A stretch of 4,936 bases of DNA, taken from IMG/VR virus record IMGVR_UViG_3300014893_000019; one strand, written 5' to 3'. This document shows, piece by piece, positions 1,316 to 4,275 of this stretch; position 1 is the first letter of the stretch, and each line of letters starts with the position of its first letter. The position numbers and the translations under genes were made by a program. The stretch is from a virus. Lineage: Duplodnaviria > Heunggongvirae > Uroviricota > Caudoviricetes. A model generated the notes under the pieces. The model saw only the letters and a program-made list of their open reading frames with translations, was not told the DNA's origin and searched no databases.

Positions 1316-1904
1316 ATCGATTAACAGAAACCACAGAACGATGAGGCTAACCGTGGGTAAGCATCACTGGAAAGTAGAAAAACAGCCTGAGTGGTACGTG
1401 AAAGCTGTCAGAAAAACTATCGCAGCGTTGCCGGGTGGTTACGCTGAAGCAGCTGACTGGCTGGATGTAACAGAGAACGCATTATTTAACCGCCTTCGTG
1501 CCGATGGCGATCAGATTTTCCCGCTGGGATGGGCAATGGTTTTACAGCGCGCGGCTGGCACTCACTACATTGCGGATGCTGTCGCACAGTCTGCTGGTGG
1601 GGTGTTCGTATCGCTTCCTGAAATTGAGGAAGTAGAGAACGCCGATATAAACCAGCGCCTGCTGGAAGTCATCGAACAGATCGGGAATTACTCAAAGCAG
1701 ATTCGTTCGGCAATCGAAGATGGGGTCGTGGAGCCACACGAGCAGACAGCAATTAATGATGAGTTGTATCTGTCAATTTCGAAGCTCCAAGAGCATGCAG
1801 CACTGGTCTACAAAATCTTTTGCGCTCCAGAAAAGAGTGACGCCCGCGAGTGTGCAGCTCCGGGCGTCGTGGCGTTTTGTGTCTGTGGAGAAACTAACGC
1901 ATGA
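1308..1904 (+). CDS. CII-like / YdaT-family phage regulatory protein (function inferred from position and recalled family resemblance)
   Basis: Open frame 1239..1904. The GTG at 1239 has AGGA only 1 nt upstream and would overlap cro by 77 nt, so it is unlikely to be the start. In-frame ATGs at 1296, 1308 and 1341; I chose 1308 (ATGGATAA overlap with the cro stop), but none has a strong SD. Sits immediately downstream of a YdaS/Cro-like gene. C-terminus has a Cys cluster (ECAAPGVVAFCVCGE). Confidence 0.65.
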   Translation: MDKSINRNHRTMRLTVGKHHWKVEKQPEWYVKAVRKTIAALPGGYAEAADWLDVTENALFNRLRADGDQIFPLGWAMVLQRAAGTHYIADAVAQSAGGVFVSLPEIEEVENADINQRLLEVIEQIGNYSKQIRSAIEDGVVEPHEQTAINDELYLSISKLQEHAALVYKIFCAPEKSDARECAAPGVVAFCVCGETNA

Positions 1905-2737
1905 ACAGTTTAACGGCAAATAACCGTTTGTCGCAACAGCTGGTGGTCAGTGTCGCTGAACACCTGTTGTTACGGCATGAATGCAGATTACCAAATCACC
2001 TGGCTGTAAGTAACCACAGAGAACTTTACCTGACTGTGGGGGGCGAGTTGTGCGGGAACTTAACCGCTGGTTTCGTGACGGAAGAGGGCTTTATGTCCAT
2101 GTTATTCGTTGGGAACCAGAAACACAGCGCGTTATCTATCTTCGCAAAGACTACCCGCATGAGTGCTTTAGTCCTTTGTGGAAATTCAGGCGTGATTTTG
2201 TTGAGTGTGAAGGACCACCAGCACATTGATTCTGCCATTCCGGGACGTTACACTGTTCAGGCACCTTATAAAGCGGGTGACGGGATTGGCGTCCTGGAAA
2301 TGTTATCGGCGATATATGACGCGCCAGCGTCTTTTTTATCGTCTGCGTCTGTGCACACCCAAATTATGGTGGGCTGGACGGGGGCACCGAAAGGTGCGCC
2401 GGTTTCCGATAACGCCGGTTACGCCAACCCCGTTCAGTTCACCACCAGCGAAATTGGCGTTTCCGGTGGTGAAGGTAATTCACTGTTATCGGAGGCTGCC
2501 ATCATGGCTACTGTCCCAGCCCTCACTCGTCTGAATGATGAAGACTTACATAAACTCAGTTATGTAACAACTGCACTACGTGCTCTGCGCAAGGTAACTC
2601 TTTCGGATCCGCAGGCGCATCAGGTTTTGGTAGAAACCCTTCTTAACTTGCAGGCTGAACGTATTCGTCTGGCGGATAAGGCTAATTTTCATATTCACCG
2701 TCTCCTGAATATCAGCGGAGGGCATCGTCATGCTTAA
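1901..2737 (+). CDS. Hypothetical protein (278 aa), no domain recognised
   Basis: Uninterrupted 278-codon frame. ATG at 1901 overlaps the upstream stop (ATGA) and GGAG lies 10 nt upstream. The C-terminal half (from about 2230) looks like ordinary protein with predicted helical segments; the N-terminal third is compositionally odd (rich in L/S/H/N, poor in K/D). Stop overlaps the next gene's start. Confidence 0.55.
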   Translation: MNSLTANNRLSQQLVVSVAEHLLLRHECRLPNHLAVSNHRELYLTVGGELCGNLTAGFVTEEGFMSMLFVGNQKHSALSIFAKTTRMSALVLCGNSGVILLSVKDHQHIDSAIPGRYTVQAPYKAGDGIGVLEMLSAIYDAPASFLSSASVHTQIMVGWTGAPKGAPVSDNAGYANPVQFTTSEIGVSGGEGNSLLSEAAIMATVPALTRLNDEDLHKLSYVTTALRALRKVTLSDPQAHQVLVETLLNLQAERIRLADKANFHIHRLLNISGGHRHA

Positions 2738-2966
2738 TCCGTTGATCCTCAATATTTGCCGTTTGCTTCAGCGTAAAAAAACATCAATTCCTACAGTTGG
2801 GCAGTGGTACACCACGCCTGCAGGGCATGTTCTACGTGTTAGCCTGGTTGACCGTGAATGTCAGAAGGTGATTTGTGAACCGCTGGGCCGTAATTACCGC
2901 ATCAGTATGCCGCTTATAGCCTTTTGCTCCGGAAAAAACATGAAGCATCTCGGAGGTGCAGCATGA
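2730..2966 (+). CDS. Hypothetical small protein (78 aa), basic, four cysteines
   Basis: ATG at 2730 with GGAGG (2717..2721) 8 nt upstream. Overlaps the upstream stop (ATGCTTAA) and its own stop overlaps the rep start (ATGA at 2963..2966). Cysteines at positions 10, 44, 49 and 66. No family recognised. Confidence 0.5.
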   Translation: MLNPLILNICRLLQRKKTSIPTVGQWYTTPAGHVLRVSLVDRECQKVICEPLGRNYRISMPLIAFCSGKNMKHLGGAA

Positions 2967-3793
2967 GTATGGAGCTGATGGTTAAAGCGATGAAAATTCG
3001 AGTGGGTAATCCATTGCGAAAACTGGTTCTGATCAAGCTGGCTGATAATGCCAGCGATCAGGGTGAGTGCTGGCCCAGCTACCAGCATATTGCTGACCAG
3101 TGCGAGATTAGCAAACGTTCTGTGATGAATCATATTGCGGCCCTTTGTGATTCCGGGCTGGTAAAAAAAGTCACCCGGAAAGGTGAAAAAGGTAACTCAA
3201 GTAATATCTATCTCCTTCATCTTGATGGTGCAGGAGATTCACTAGGGGGTAGTGCAAATAATTCACTATCTGGTGCAGCAAATTCACCAGGTAGTGCAGG
3301 AGTTGCACCAGGGGGTGGTGCAGGAGATTCACCCAGAACCAGTCACTCTTTTGAACCAGTCAAAGAACCAGTCAAAGAACCAGTCAATGAACCAATAGCT
3401 GTTGGTGCATCTGCTGATGAGTCTGTGCGAGTTCGTTCAAACCGACCGGAATACTCTCCGGAGTTTGAGCAGGCATGGCTGGCATACCCCAAACGTGCTG
3501 GTGGCAATTCAAAATCTGCAGCCTTCAAAGCCTGGAAAGCCCGTTTGAATGAGGGGGTAAAACCCGAAACCATGCTGGAAGGTGTGAAACGCTACGCGGG
3601 CTGGGTATCTGCGATGGGTAACAGCGGCACACAATTTGTGAAACAGGCTGTCACGTTCTTTGGTCCGGATCGTCATTTCGAAGAATCCTGGGAAGTTCCT
3701 GCGGTATCTGCAGCCAGACGCGAGGACCCGTACTTCAAAGCCAGTTACGACAACGTGGACTACAGCCAGATCCCGGCAGGATTCAGGGGGTAA
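2963..3793 (+). CDS. Phage replication initiator (lambda O-like organisation): N-terminal winged-helix HTH_36-type domain, Gly/Ser/Ala- and Pro-rich linker, C-terminal domain
   Basis: ATG at 2963 with GGAGGT (2952..2957) 5 nt upstream; the track's longer 2924 version starts at TTG without an SD. N-terminus LRKLVLIKLADNASDQGECWPSYQHIADQCEISKRSVMNHIAALCDSGLV...SSNIYLL matches the recalled HTH_36 (PF13730) replication-protein pattern. The central low-complexity linker is encoded by DNA repeats. Conserved-looking C-terminus (EQAWLAYPKRAGG...AAFKAWKARL). Confidence 0.85.
   Translation: MSMELMVKAMKIRVGNPLRKLVLIKLADNASDQGECWPSYQHIADQCEISKRSVMNHIAALCDSGLVKKVTRKGEKGNSSNIYLLHLDGAGDSLGGSANNSLSGAANSPGSAGVAPGGGAGDSPRTSHSFEPVKEPVKEPVNEPIAVGASADESVRVRSNRPEYSPEFEQAWLAYPKRAGGNSKSAAFKAWKARLNEGVKPETMLEGVKRYAGWVSAMGNSGTQFVKQAVTFFGPDRHFEESWEVPAVSAARREDPYFKASYDNVDYSQIPAGFRG
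3226..3396 (+). repeat. Iteron-like direct repeats inside the replication initiator gene; candidate origin of replication
   Basis: Identical 17-mer TGGTGCAGGAGATTCAC at 3226..3242 and 3316..3332. Between them are about five imperfect ~21-23-bp units sharing GGTGCAG/GTAGTGCA and ATTCAC cores (unit starts near 3227, 3248, 3272, 3290, 3317). Followed by three tandem 12-bp units GAACCAGTCAAA/T (3353..3388), with partial copies at 3337..3347 and 3389..3396. The repeats are directly visible; the origin function is inferred. Confidence 0.6.
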
Positions 3794-3795
3794 TC

Positions 3796-4275
3796 ATGAG
3801 TCTTTTGAATGAAGTTCAGAAATTCATTGAAGCCCATCCGGGGTGTACTTCCGGAGACATTGCGGATGCTTTTGCAGGTTACTCACGGCAGCGCGTTCTG
3901 CAGTCAGCAAGCAAGTTACGTCAGAGTGGGCGTGTGGCTNNNNNNNNNNNNNNNNNNNNNNNNNNNNNNNNNNNNNNNNNNNNNNNNNNNNNNNNNNNNN
4001 NNNNNNNNNNNNNNNNNNNNCCTGTGCGCAATTTCTATGTCGGCACTAACGATCCCCGGGTGATTTTGTGCCTGACCCGCCAGGCTGAAGAACTGGAGTC
4101 CAGGGGCTTATACCGTCGTGCTGCAACCGTGTGGATGGCGGCATTCCGTGAAAGCCACTCCCAGCCAGAACGAAACAATTTTCTGGCACGTCGTGAGCGG
4201 TGCTTACGGAAAAGCAGCAAGCGCGCTGTATCGGGTGATGAGTGGTATCTGTCAGGGAATTACGTGGGGGCTTAA
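3796..4275 (+). CDS. ORF interrupted by an N run; the C-terminal part resembles a PerC-family transcriptional regulator, the N-terminal part looks like a small winged-helix/HTH protein. May be one gene or two.
   Basis: ATG at 3796 with GGGGG (3786..3790) 5 nt upstream, 2 nt after the rep stop. The frame is continuous across the 81-nt N run only if that is the true length. The C-terminal segment QAEELESRGLYRRAATVWMAAF...RRERCLRK recalls the PerC/Pch signature. Stop overlaps the Dam start (TAATG). Confidence 0.45.
   Translation: MSLLNEVQKFIEAHPGCTSGDIADAFAGYSRQRVLQSASKLRQSGRVAXXXXXXXXXXXXXXXXXXXXXXXXXXXPVRNFYVGTNDPRVILCLTRQAEELESRGLYRRAATVWMAAFRESHSQPERNNFLARRERCLRKSSKRAVSGDEWYLSGNYVGA
3940..4020. 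other. Run of 81 ambiguous bases (assembly gap or masked sequence)
   Basis: Literal n characters at 3940..4020. True length and content are unknown, so any coding call across it is provisional. Confidence 1.

What the first reader, a model, noticed from the sequence alone, without database searches (positions are those of the whole stretch)
1901..2966. Uncharacterised two-gene cassette between the cII-like gene and the replication initiator
In lambda itself cII is followed directly by O. Here two genes (278 aa and a 78-aa basic protein with four cysteines) sit in between, both with usable SD sequences and both start/stop-coupled into the early-right operon. I recognise no domain or catalytic motif in either. 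Their position means expression immediately on induction or infection, as expected for superinfection exclusion, anti-defence, host-takeover or replication-accessory functions. This is the best candidate in the window for something undescribed, but the case rests on absence of recognition, not on positive evidence.
Basis: partly seen in the sequence, partly recalled or inferred. Interest (0 to 1): 0.55.

Follow-up and report, generated by a model that had tools for sequence, protein, structure and literature searches.

The report
P4-type RNA immunity switch misread as protein
The "278-aa gene" is mostly not a conventional protein gene: it is one long open frame running through a hidden small gene in another frame and two known regulatory RNAs that probably gate the phage's replication genes, and only the 78-aa protein and a 77-aa nested ORF remain truly uncharacterised.

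Summary
Both ORFs exist as described: coordinates, SD sequences, ATGA-type start/stop overlaps and four cysteines all check out. The reading "two unknown protein genes" does not hold.

The window is an SfV/2H10/e14-like E. coli prophage, 100% identical to many genomes. The 278-aa ORF is a run-through frame made of these parts:
- **ymfM-like N-terminus (1901-2049):** under purifying selection.
- **Unnoticed DUF4222 gene (2050-2229):** 59 aa, in the -1 frame. It is the frame actually selected there (pN/pS 0.07-0.35, against 1.3-7.6 for the 278-aa frame).
- **isrK/seqA-like RNA with terminator (2261-2337) and C4/CI-type antisense RNA (2362-2449):** both score above their Rfam gathering thresholds.
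- **Nested 77-aa ORF (2504-2737).**

The Pfam "Ash" domain coincides with the two RNAs. It shows no protein-level constraint (pN/pS about 0.6-2), but the RNA stems covary perfectly. The C4 loop, a box in isrK and a box over the SD of ATG 2504 change together across ten alleles, including P4 itself.

This is the architecture of the phage P4 eta/kil-seqA-CI-seqC immunity device, also seen in Gifsy-1 isrK-orf45-anrP, placed here upstream of the O-like replication gene. p78 is a real small beta-barrel protein, always linked to the RNA module, of unknown function.

Verdict: a new member of a known kind, of moderate interest.

The parts
1901..2737 (+). 278-aa run-through ORF ('eta-like'). Its start is coupled to the ymfL stop (ATGA). 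It reads in one frame through every element listed below.
   Evidence: The ORF is open in all Ash-bearing relatives, as 278 aa or as 380-388 aa with a Rha domain. The same frame has no stops across the RNA module in all 10 alleles, including P4.
1901..2049 (+). ymfM-like N-terminal coding segment (about 50 codons).
   Evidence: BLASTP to e14 YmfM gives E=1e-7. pN/pS is 0.35 in this frame against about 1.2 in the other frames across 19 loci, and 0.40-0.73 within the window's own subfamily. Indels between types are multiples of 3.
2050..2229 (+). DUF4222 gene, 59 aa, GTG start, in the -1 frame relative to the 278-aa ORF.
   Evidence: Pfam PF13973 scores 50.9 bits against a cut-off of 27. PGAP annotates it. 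Most relatives have an ATG start and a GGAGGG SD. pN/pS is 0.07-0.35 in this frame against 1.3-7.6 in the 278-aa frame. The AF2 model has pLDDT 86.5 and an SH3/Tudor-like barrel.
2226..2254 (+). Candidate internal promoter: TTGATT, 17-nt spacer, TACACT, about 6 nt before the isrK 5' end. This is an inference.
   Evidence: Read directly from the sequence. The stretch 2225-2285 is nearly invariant at nucleotide level among otherwise divergent alleles. The consensus scan did not call it, because it matches only 8 of 12 positions.
2261..2337 (+). isrK / P4 seqA-like RNA, ending in an intrinsic terminator (stem 2318-2331 plus a T-run). It carries target boxes AUUGGCGU (2285-2292) and UGUUAUCGG (2301-2309).
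   Evidence: Rfam RF01394 scores 55.4 bits against 50. It is found in all Ash-bearing loci and at the P4 seqA position. Its terminator is the only one found in 1850-3050. The boxes are complementary to C4.
2362..2449 (+). C4 / P4 CI-type antisense RNA. The specificity loop is 2403-2414 (UUUCCGAUAACG) and the 3' single strand is 2420-2427 (UACGCCAA). An invariant ATG at 2366 sits in the 5' stem, at the position of the orf45 start.
   Evidence: Rfam RF01695 scores 82.8 bits against 45, E=7e-16. The MFE fold equals the Rfam consensus, z=-5.1. All 216 of 216 cells are paired, 11 of 27 pairs show compensatory changes, and 0 of 500 shuffles match this.
2453..2498 (+). seqC-like downstream target: AUUGGCGU (2453-2460) and UGUUAUCGGAGGCUG (2484-2498). 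The second box covers the SD GGAGG at 2491-2495.
   Evidence: A 15-bp complementarity to the C4 loop. The box covaries with the C4 loop and the isrK box across 8-10 alleles, including P4.
2504..2737 (+). Nested 77-aa ORF in the same frame, at the position of P4 kil and of the Rha antirepressor start in sister alleles. Function unknown.
   Evidence: The context GGAGGCUGCCAUCAUGGCUAC is conserved in all alleles and in P4. phrog_4908 and phrog_3960 cover it. Only near-identical homologues exist. There is no similarity to P4 Kil.
2730..2966 (+). p78: 78-aa basic protein (phrog_1153) with an N-terminal helix and a five-strand SH3/Tudor-like barrel. Its stop is coupled to the O-like gene start.

Best explanation
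The region is a mosaic regulatory segment of the early-right operon. It is not a two-protein cassette.

**1. An overlapping gene pair (1901-2229).** This pair is shared with e14-like prophages. It consists of a ymfM-like leader ORF and, in its -1 frame, a small DUF4222 protein of the RgdR family.

**2. A P4-type RNA immunity device (about 2226-2503).** It consists of a probable internal promoter, an isrK/seqA-like RNA with an intrinsic terminator, a C4/CI-type antisense RNA, and a seqC-like target that covers the ribosome-binding site of the next ORF.

**Proposed mechanism, by analogy with P4, P1 c4 and Gifsy-1 IsrK.**
- The C4 RNA is cut out of the transcript.
- Through its loop and its 3' single strand it pairs with the two-part boxes upstream (in isrK) and downstream (over the SD of ATG 2504).
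- Transcripts from the internal promoter are then terminated or left untranslated, so the 77-aa ORF, p78 and the O-like replication genes stay off.
- Because the boxes and the loop are allele-specific, this would also act in trans as an RNA-based immunity specificity.
- After induction, the PR transcript is translated from ATG 1901, which is coupled to ymfL. Because this frame has no stop before 2737, ribosomes run through isrK and C4, as P4 Eta translation does. They would override termination and let the replication genes be expressed.

**What is shown:** the elements, their covariation, the frame-specific selection and the conserved open frame.

**What is inferred:** the promoter, RNA processing, termination versus translational block, the direction of regulation, and any function of the 77-aa ORF and p78.
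For: - Rfam hits are above gathering in the window and in every Ash-bearing relative, and they fall on P4's own CI and seqA.
- The C4 stems covary: 100% of cells paired, 11 compensatory pairs, 0 of 500 shuffles reaching this, and slid controls at 32-49%. Folding z-score is -5.1.
- There is three-way covariation of the C4 loop, the isrK box and the downstream box in 10 alleles over 91 places, with cognate pairs scoring best.
- The downstream box overlaps the SD of ATG 2504.
- The only terminator in the region is that of isrK.
- The Ash segment has pN/pS of 0.6-2.06 while its flanks are nearly identical.
- The DUF4222 frame is the selected frame in 2050-2229.
- The run-through frame has no stops in all 10 alleles, and its nested ATGs are in frame.
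- The long ORF is coupled to three different upstream genes: ymfL here, a Bro-N gene in phiP27 and a Rha gene in Stx2_12E129.
- The published P4 eta/kil/CI logic and its occurrence in Bro-network genes are summarised in PMC10111431. The Gifsy-1 isrK-orf45-anrP locus, with orf45 conserved at nucleotide level but variable in amino acids, is described in PMC4825925.
Against: - No expression data exist for this locus.
- The internal promoter matches only 8 of 12 consensus positions and was not called by the scan.
- isrK stem covariation is weak: 2 compensatory pairs.
- In Gifsy-1 the short IsrK activates rather than represses, so the sign of regulation here is uncertain.
- The 278-aa polypeptide may well be made, and a protein role for parts of it cannot be excluded.
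- The 77-aa ORF has no divergent homologues, so its coding status cannot be tested.
Confidence: 0.75

Rival explanations
1. The 278-aa ORF encodes a genuine multi-domain protein whose Ash domain works as a protein, for example as an antirepressor, as the PGAP, PHROG and Pfam names suggest. On this view the RNA matches are secondary.
For: Pfam Phage_ASH scores 63.5 bits. The ORF is open in all relatives. Many records call it antirepressor or transcriptional regulator. In sister alleles it is fused to a real Rha domain.
Against: pN/pS is about 1-2 in the Ash segment. Its variation is fully explained by RNA stem covariation and by loop/target co-change. Part of the ORF (aa 51-109) is the unconstrained antiframe of DUF4222. 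P4 epsilon, the true helper-derepression protein, belongs to a different Pfam family (PF25738), whereas Phage_ASH hits the ORF that spans the P4 CI RNA.
Confidence: 0.1
2. The RNA module works as in Gifsy-1 rather than as in P4. [quoted passage not shown]
For: isrK scores above gathering and has its own terminator. The architecture isrK, then an ORF starting in the C4 stem, then the effector gene, matches isrK-orf45-anrP. isrK and the downstream region share the same boxes, so isrK could compete with C4 pairing.
Against: Here the orf45-like frame is fused in frame to the next ORF rather than overlapping it in an AUGA stop/start as at Gifsy-1. The position upstream of replication genes and the run-through ORF fit P4 better. 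The two models are not mutually exclusive.
Confidence: 0.3
3. This is the first reader's view: two early protein genes acting in superinfection exclusion, anti-defence, host takeover or replication assistance.
For: The segment lies in the early-right operon and its ORFs are start/stop-coupled. p78 is a real protein under purifying selection, with no known function. The e14 homologue of the N-terminal region is a reported cell-division inhibitor.
Against: There are no PADLOC hits. The 278-aa gene model is not a single protein gene.
Confidence: 0.15
4. The segment is a decaying remnant in a cryptic prophage and has no current function.
For: e14-type relatives are cryptic prophages. The 77-aa ORF is an orphan.
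Against: Near-identical segments occur in sequenced phage genomes such as 2H10, SfV, Ayreon and mEp460. Ten alleles keep perfect pairing and cognate targets. DUF4222 and p78 are under purifying selection.
Confidence: 0.05

Closest known systems
Satellite phage P4 left-operon immunity device: eta/kil nested ORFs, seqA, CI RNA and seqC, upstream of epsilon and the alpha replication gene
   Same: - P4's own CI RNA and seqA are hit by the same Rfam models, C4 and isrK.
- The order is the same: target, antisense RNA, then target over a conserved GGAGGCUGCCAUCAUGGCUAC start.
- The in-frame nested ATGs have the same 138-nt spacing.
- A long stop-free ORF is coupled to the upstream gene.
- Replication genes lie downstream.
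- The logic is summarised in PMC10111431.
   Different: - The host element is a lambdoid prophage with a CI/Cro/CII-like switch, and the module sits in the PR operon.
- The leader ORF starts with a ymfM-like segment and overlaps a DUF4222 gene.
- The nested ORF (77 aa) shows no similarity to P4 Kil.
- p78 replaces epsilon/orf151.
- The specificity loop differs.
Gifsy-1 isrK-orf45-anrP locus (Salmonella)
   Same: - An isrK RNA with a terminator.
- A downstream ORF starting in the C4-like region whose nucleotides, but not its amino acids, are conserved.
- An effector gene that is a Rha-type antirepressor in the sister alleles mEp460, 118970_sal3 and phiP27.
   Different: - The Gifsy-1 locus lies next to antQ, not upstream of a replication gene.
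- There the orf45 stop overlaps the anrP start (AUGA), whereas here the frames are fused.
- The window's allele lacks the Rha domain.
P1/P7 immI: c4 antisense RNA, icd, ant
   Same: The RNA family is the same (Rfam C4). A loop sequence masks the RBS of the first downstream ORF, and allelic loops define heteroimmunity (own knowledge and PMC12197685).
   Different: There is no Icd or Ant homologue in the window, the genomic context is different, and two flanking targets are arranged as in P4.
[quoted passage not shown]
   Same: The position is the same, with ATG overlapping the ymfL stop. The N-terminal segment is homologous, and a DUF4222 ORF is nested in the same way.
   Different: e14 ymfM stops 20 nt before the DUF4222 stop and is followed directly by the replication gene. 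In the window the stop is lost and the frame runs on. Inhibition of division was not tested here.
RgdR (ECs1581), a DUF4222 prophage regulator of LEE/T3SS and motility in EHEC
   Same: The Pfam domain DUF4222 is shared (PMC10877973). Both are small, prophage-borne and easily missed by annotation (PMC3378721).
   Different: RgdR is 99 aa and carries an RGD motif important for activity. The window protein is 59 aa and has RDGRG instead. No functional inference is justified.

Membership tests
Rfam C4 antisense RNA (RF01695; P1 c4 / P4 CI type) | Covariance-model score at or above the gathering threshold | tested here: met
   82.8 bits against 45, E=7e-16, full-length match to model positions 1-87.
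Rfam C4 antisense RNA (RF01695; P1 c4 / P4 CI type) | Long closing stem with two internal hairpins, supported by covariation | tested here: met
   All 216 of 216 cells are paired, 11 of 27 pairs show changes on both sides, 0 of 500 shuffles reach this, and slid controls give 32-49%. The MFE fold equals the consensus, z=-5.1.
Rfam C4 antisense RNA (RF01695; P1 c4 / P4 CI type) | Loop sequences complementary to target sites on the same operon, including an RBS | tested here: met
   A 15-bp match to 2484-2498 covers the SD at 2491-2495, and a 9-bp match falls on 2301-2309. These co-change in 10 alleles.
Rfam C4 antisense RNA (RF01695; P1 c4 / P4 CI type) | Processing to a stable small RNA that represses its targets in vivo | not testable with these tools
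   Needs Northern blots, RNA-seq and reporter assays.
Rfam isrK (RF01394; P4 seqA homologue) | Covariance-model score at or above gathering, and a Rho-independent terminator | tested here: met
   55.4 bits against 50. The terminator is at 2318-2331 plus a T-run. Stem covariation is only weak.
Rfam isrK (RF01394; P4 seqA homologue) | Own promoter directly upstream | tested here: inconclusive
   TTGATT, 17 nt, TACACT at 2226-2254 is nucleotide-invariant among alleles, but it falls below the scan threshold.
P4 eta/kil-type nested ORF over an immunity RNA | One stop-free frame through seqA, CI and seqC, with an in-frame nested start after seqC and a start coupled to the upstream gene | tested here: met
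   There are 0 stops in that frame in 10 of 10 alleles, including P4, and the nested ATG lies 138 or 141 nt downstream in frame. ATGA coupling is present at 1901 and in phiP27.
P4 eta/kil-type nested ORF over an immunity RNA | Translation of the long ORF suppresses immunity-specific termination | not testable with these tools
   Known for P4 only (PMC10111431).
Pfam Phage_ASH (PF10554) as a protein domain | HMM score above gathering | tested here: met
   63.5 bits against 26, aa 117-210.
Pfam Phage_ASH (PF10554) as a protein domain | Protein-level purifying selection, as expected of a real domain | tested here: not met
   pN/pS is 2.06, 1.05, 0.95, 0.60 and 0.90 for aa 128-201 against five alleles. 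The domain coordinates coincide with isrK plus C4.
P4 epsilon helper-derepression protein (Pfam PF25738) | Sequence or HMM similarity | tested here: not met
   P4 epsilon hits PF25738, not PF10554. BLASTP against the window ORF gives E=2.8.
Pfam DUF4222 (RgdR family) | HMM score above gathering, and selection in that frame | tested here: met
   50.9 bits against 27. pN/pS is 0.07-0.35.
Pfam DUF4222 (RgdR family) | RGD motif required for RgdR activity | tested here: not met
   The window has FRDGRGL and no RGD (PMC3378721).
YmfM/SfiC cell-division inhibitor | Orthologous position and sequence similarity | tested here: inconclusive
   The start context is the same and BLASTP gives E=1e-7 at 32% identity. 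However, half of the match is the DUF4222 antiframe, and the window ORF lacks the ymfM stop.
YmfM/SfiC cell-division inhibitor | Blocks Z-ring formation when expressed | not testable with these tools
   Experimental (bioRxiv 10.1101/2020.11.19.390815).
Rha antirepressor (Pfam Phage_pRha) | Rha domain after the RNA module | tested here: not met
   It is absent from the window. It is present in the alleles of mEp460, 118970_sal3, C. braakii and phiP27.

The most novel reading that the evidence does not exclude
SfV-, mEp460- and Stx-type lambdoid phages carry a second, RNA-based immunity layer.
- It is a polymorphic P4-type antisense switch, with at least 10 specificity alleles among the loci seen here.
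- It gates the replication initiator, and either an antirepressor or the orphan 77-aa/p78 pair, independently of the CI protein.
- It is overridden on induction by translation of a run-through leader ORF.

If so, two consequences follow.
- The widely used 'Ash family protein' annotation is largely a translated RNA locus.
- p78 and the 77-aa ORF are new effectors under RNA immunity control.

A linked possibility concerns e14. The filamentation assigned to ymfM might be due, wholly or partly, to the unannotated nested DUF4222 protein.
Probability: 0.4. Interest if true: 0.6.

Novelty: new member of a known kind. Interest (0 to 1): 0.4.

Why it matters
- **Annotation.** The label 'ash family protein' (PGAP) or 'Phage_ASH' (Pfam) is attached to the DNA of a P4-type immunity RNA module in many E. 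coli, Shigella and Salmonella prophages and Stx phages. Related module DNA was found in 339 phage records. Workers on Stx-phage 'Eru' regulatory regions and on satellite detection treat Ash as a protein domain of unknown function or equate it with P4 epsilon. The RNA reading gives a concrete, testable mechanism for control of replication genes and for heteroimmunity.
- **Overlapping genes.** Frame-specific selection resolves an overlapping-gene conflict: ymfM in the K-12 reference against DUF4222 in PGAP. This bears on which product is the SfiC division inhibitor.
- **What remains open.** For the finding as submitted, the outcome is mostly deflationary. Only p78 and the 77-aa ORF remain truly uncharacterised.

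Tried and rejected
1. **Ash as a P4 epsilon antirepressor homologue.** This was suggested by PMC8628076. It is rejected: P4 epsilon is Pfam PF25738 and unrelated, and Phage_ASH maps to the ORF over the P4 CI RNA.
2. **Programmed -1 frameshift joining the ymfM-like N-terminus to DUF4222.** This is rejected. DUF4222 has its own conserved SD and ATG, several loci have a stop 3-6 nt before the start, and there is no conserved slippery site.
3. **p78 as a DUF4222 paralogue.**
   - hhalign is not significant, E=0.11.
   - A profile search of 1.84 billion representatives found no bridging sequences.
   - Only the fold class and the order of secondary-structure elements agree. This is kept as a lead.
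4. **p78 against P4 ORF151.** hhalign gives E=0.024 at probability 2%. This is kept as a lead only.
5. **The 77-aa ORF against P4 Kil.** No similarity.
6. **Independent Ash start.** GTG 2192 (PGAP) and GTG 2207 (PHROG 3960; aligns with the phiP27 ATG) both lack a usable SD. The question lost importance once the RNA module was found.
7. **Defence-system models.** PADLOC gave no hits.
8. **Solved structures by sequence.** Nothing significant.
9. **Promoter scan.** It did not call the candidate internal promoter.
10. **Resources that were unavailable.** The afdb50 fold library and Forti et al. 1999, PMC94026. Details of P4 kil/eta beyond PMC10111431 therefore rest on my own recollection.
Full report
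**Context**

The window is the immunity and early-right region of an E. coli lambdoid prophage of the SfV / phage 2H10 / e14 type.
- An S24-peptidase CI-like repressor lies at 391-1017 on the minus strand.
- A P22-Cro-like gene lies at 1115-1315.
- A YmfL / 186-CII (CP76) family gene lies at 1308-1904.
- The finding covers 1901-2966.
- An O-like replication initiator lies at 2963-3793.
- A PerC-like gene at 3796-4275 is interrupted by a run of N.
- A Dam methyltransferase follows.

The segment 1901-2966 is 99.9-100% identical to phage 2H10 and to many E. coli chromosomes, and 95.8% identical to Shigella phage SfV, where it is orf37 ('immunity region') and orf38. It has matches in 1508 of 5426 complete E. 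coli genomes.

**Observation**

p78 is basic and has four cysteines.

The claim that nothing is recognisable is not correct.
- Pfam Phage_ASH hits aa 117-210 of the 278-aa ORF.
- NCBI's pipeline does not call the 278-aa ORF at all. It annotates a 59-aa DUF4222 gene in another frame (window 2050-2229), an 'ash family protein' from GTG 2192, and the 78-aa ORF.

**The 5' third: two overlapping genes**

The alternative-frame ORF 2050-2229 matches Pfam DUF4222 at 50.9 bits against a cut-off of 27.

In e14 of K-12 the same place holds ymfM, annotated 'cell division inhibitor', 112 aa. Its 3' half overlaps an unannotated DUF4222 ORF that has a strong AAGGAG SD.

I collected 37 divergent loci from Enterobacteriaceae genomes.
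- The usual arrangement is cI, cro, ymfL, then a ymfM-frame ORF of 108-116 aa, with a DUF4222 ORF nested in the -1 frame of its 3' half. The DUF4222 ORF is 59-60 aa, mostly has an ATG start, and has a conserved GGAGGG SD.
- In these loci the replication gene follows directly.
- The distance from the ymfM ATG to the DUF4222 start is always 2 mod 3.

Nei-Gojobori counts on 19 loci show that the selected frame switches at the DUF4222 start.
- Upstream of it, pN/pS is 0.35 in the ymfM frame and about 1.2 in the other two frames.
- Inside DUF4222, pN/pS is 0.35 in the DUF4222 frame and 1.32 in the ymfM frame.

In the window's own subfamily (window, C. braakii, Salmonella phage 118970_sal3) the contrast is sharper: 0.07-0.17 against 1.3-7.6.

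Three conclusions follow.
- The first 50 or so codons of the 278-aa ORF are a real ymfM-like coding segment.
- Codons 51-109 are only the unconstrained antiframe of DUF4222.

A frameshift fusion of the two was considered and rejected.

DUF4222 has one studied member, RgdR of EHEC prophage CP-933C. RgdR is a small regulator of LEE1/T3SS and motility, and it too was first missed by annotation. The window protein lacks the RGD motif of RgdR.

**The 'Ash domain' is an RNA locus**

The segment aa 128-201 is hypervariable between otherwise nearly identical phages, and it shows no protein-level constraint. pN/pS is 2.06 against SfV, 1.05 against an Stx2c phage, 0.95 against mEp460, 0.60 against sal3 and 0.90 against C. 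braakii.

I first followed a published statement that Ash is P4 epsilon, the antirepressor. When tested, this failed.
- P4 epsilon is Pfam PF25738.
- Phage_ASH instead hits the old 'cI ORF' that spans the P4 immunity region.

A scan of the window against Rfam then gave two matches above their gathering scores, both inside the Ash domain:
- isrK at 2261-2337 (55.4 bits against 50), ending in the only intrinsic terminator of the region;
- C4 antisense RNA at 2362-2449 (82.8 bits against 45).

Every Ash-bearing relative has both RNAs. Ash-less loci have neither. In P4 the same two models fall on the CI RNA and on seqA.

On eight distinct alleles the C4 structure is supported as follows:
- all 216 cells are paired;
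- 11 of 27 pairs carry compensatory double changes;
- none of 500 shuffles reaches this;
- slid controls give 32-49% paired.

The window's C4 folds into the Rfam consensus with z=-5.1.

**Targets and specificity**

The C4 hairpin-2 loop (2403-2414, UUUCCGAUAACG) is complementary to two sites.
- One is UGUUAUCGG in isrK (2301-2309).
- The other is UGUUAUCGGAGGCUG (2484-2498), which covers the SD GGAGG 8 nt before ATG 2504.

The 3' single strand of C4 (UACGCCAA) matches AUUGGCGU boxes at 2285-2292 and 2453-2460.

Across alleles the loop and both boxes change together.

| Allele | C4 loop | Box in isrK | Downstream box |
|---|---|---|---|
| window | CCGAUAACG | UGUUAUCGG | UGUUAUCGGAGG |
| SfV | CCUUGAUCA | UGAUCAAGG | GAUCAAGGAGG |
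| mEp460 | CUUUGGUGA | UCACCAAAG | UCACCAAAGAG |
| C. braakii | CAUGUGCGA | UCGCACAUG | UCGCACAUGA |
| phiP27 | CCUUGAGCG | UGCUCGAGG | UGCUCAAGGAGG |
| P4 | CCUGUGAA | UUCACAGG | UUCACAGGA |

Cognate combinations score highest. Ten alleles were found in 91 places.

This is the seqA-CI-seqC logic of P4 and the loop-to-RBS logic of P1/P7 c4 (own knowledge).

**Why one long open frame?**

In all ten alleles, P4 included, the frame that starts at the invariant ATG in the C4 5' stem (window 2366, the position of the Gifsy-1 orf45 start) behaves in a distinctive way.
- It has no stop from isrK to the conserved downstream start.
- That downstream start is in frame, 138 or 141 nt further on.
- The other two frames carry 0-7 stops over the same stretch.

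The long ORF is start-coupled to three unrelated upstream genes: ymfL here, a Bro-N gene in phiP27 and a Rha gene in Stx2_12E129.

This matches what is described for P4 (summarised in PMC10111431).
- eta contains a constitutive internal promoter.
- The transcript from that promoter is terminated through the CI/seqA interactions.
- Kil is the truncated, nested product.
- Full-length Eta is translated only from an upstream promoter, coupled to the alpA homologue, and its translation prevents termination.

In P4 the nested ORF I derived is 65 aa, the size I recall for Kil.

The window's 278-aa ORF is therefore best read as an eta-like run-through ORF. Its translation probably matters more than its sequence.

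The stretch 2225-2285 is invariant at nucleotide level among alleles. It contains TTGATT, 17 nt, TACACT just upstream of the isrK 5' end. This is a plausible internal promoter, but it lies below the scan threshold.

**The remaining protein genes**

*The nested ORF 2504-2737 (77 aa).*
- It replaces the Rha antirepressor found at this place in mEp460, sal3, C. braakii and phiP27.
- It has only near-identical homologues.
- It has no similarity to P4 Kil.

*p78.*
- It is under purifying selection, pN/pS 0.37.
- It belongs to a very small enterobacterial family: 41 clusters, and 25 representatives among 1.84 billion.
- It is present in 85 of 87 loci with the RNA module and in none of 37 without it.
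- It also accompanies the module in phiP27, where ymfM and DUF4222 are absent.
- Its AF2 model (pLDDT 81) has an N-terminal helix followed by a five-strand barrel.
- The DUF4222 model (pLDDT 86.5) has the same order of secondary-structure elements.
- Sequence-profile comparison of p78 with DUF4222 is not significant, E=0.11. Common descent is only a lead.
- No defence-system model matches p78, DUF4222 or the 278-aa ORF.

**Mechanism proposed**

In the lysogen, a transcript from the internal promoter yields isrK and, by read-through, C4. C4 pairs with the two-part boxes in isrK and over the SD of ATG 2504. This keeps the 77-aa ORF, p78 and the O-like replication genes silent, and does so allele-specifically, hence also in trans against a superinfecting relative.

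After CI cleavage, PR transcripts are translated from ATG 1901 through the module. This would override the block.

Steps that are shown:
- the elements themselves;
- RNA covariation;
- target co-variation;
- frame-specific selection;
- the conserved open frame;
- the linkage of p78 to the module.

Steps that are inferred:
- the promoter;
- RNA processing;
- termination as opposed to translational block;
- whether isrK acts as a decoy or activator, as in Gifsy-1;
- any role of the 77-aa ORF, p78, DUF4222 and the ymfM-like segment.

**Verdict**

The interpretation as an undescribed two-protein cassette is only partly supported. The thing is a new member, in a lambdoid early operon, of the known P4 / P1-c4 / IsrK family of RNA immunity switches, joined to a ymfM/DUF4222 overlapping pair. 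Two small orphan ORFs are left unexplained.

Noticed in passing
L004 5823-6181 (E. coli K-12 e14; ymfM 5823-6161, unannotated DUF4222 ORF 6002-6181): The K-12 reference annotates ymfM ('cell division inhibitor') and no DUF4222 gene. PGAP-annotated genomes, including other MG1655 assemblies, annotate only DUF4222 at the same DNA. Selection supports the first 55 or so codons of ymfM and the whole DUF4222 ORF, but not the ymfM C-terminal half. The pBAD-ymfM construct that caused filamentation contains nearly the whole DUF4222 ORF with its own AAGGAG SD and TTG start. Which product is SfiC is therefore open.
   Followed up: partly
L127 (phage P4) 7888-8175 and 8168-8584, minus strand: P4 epsilon, the helper derepression protein, is Pfam PF25738. 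PF10554 (Phage_ASH) instead matches the ORF spanning the CI RNA. A survey of P4-like satellites used PF10554 as the marker for epsilon (PMC8628076). That marker probably detects the immunity-RNA region rather than epsilon.
   Followed up: partly
window 2225-2285: This stretch is almost invariant at nucleotide level, with no synonymous changes, among alleles that differ by 30-45% just downstream. It spans the DUF4222 stop, a TTGATT-17-TACACT promoter-like pair and the 5' hairpin of isrK. It may also serve as a recombination boundary for allele exchange.
   Followed up: partly
window 3228-3394 (inside the O-like replication gene): There are iteron-like direct repeats of the form GTGCA...TTCAC with starts at 3228, 3252 and 3294, and each 39-nt unit appears to hold two such motifs. 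These are followed by three 12-nt-spaced copies of GAACCAGTCAAAGAACCA. This is probably the replication origin lying within the initiator gene, as in lambda.
   Followed up: partly
window 3940-4020: A run of 81 N masks the middle of the PerC-like yfdN homologue. It is a data mask, not biology.
   Followed up: no
window 2730-2966 against L127 7440-7895 (P4 ORF151): There is a weak profile match of p78 residues 18-60 to the N-terminus of P4 ORF151, E=0.024 at probability 2%. Both genes overlap the end of the preceding gene by 8 nt and lie between the RNA-controlled gene and the replication gene. The homology is possible but unproven.
   Followed up: partly
L125 3124-3363 (phage phiP27): A 79-aa p78 homologue sits unannotated in the gap between L16 (an Ash-Rha ORF) and L17 (the replication protein) in the phiP27 record.
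   Followed up: no
window 2038-2043: A run of six G just upstream of the DUF4222 GTG start fits the form of a -1 slippery heptamer (G GGG GGC) in the ymfM frame. It is not conserved: e14-type loci have AAGGAG or GGAGGG there. It was therefore read as the SD for DUF4222.
   Followed up: yes
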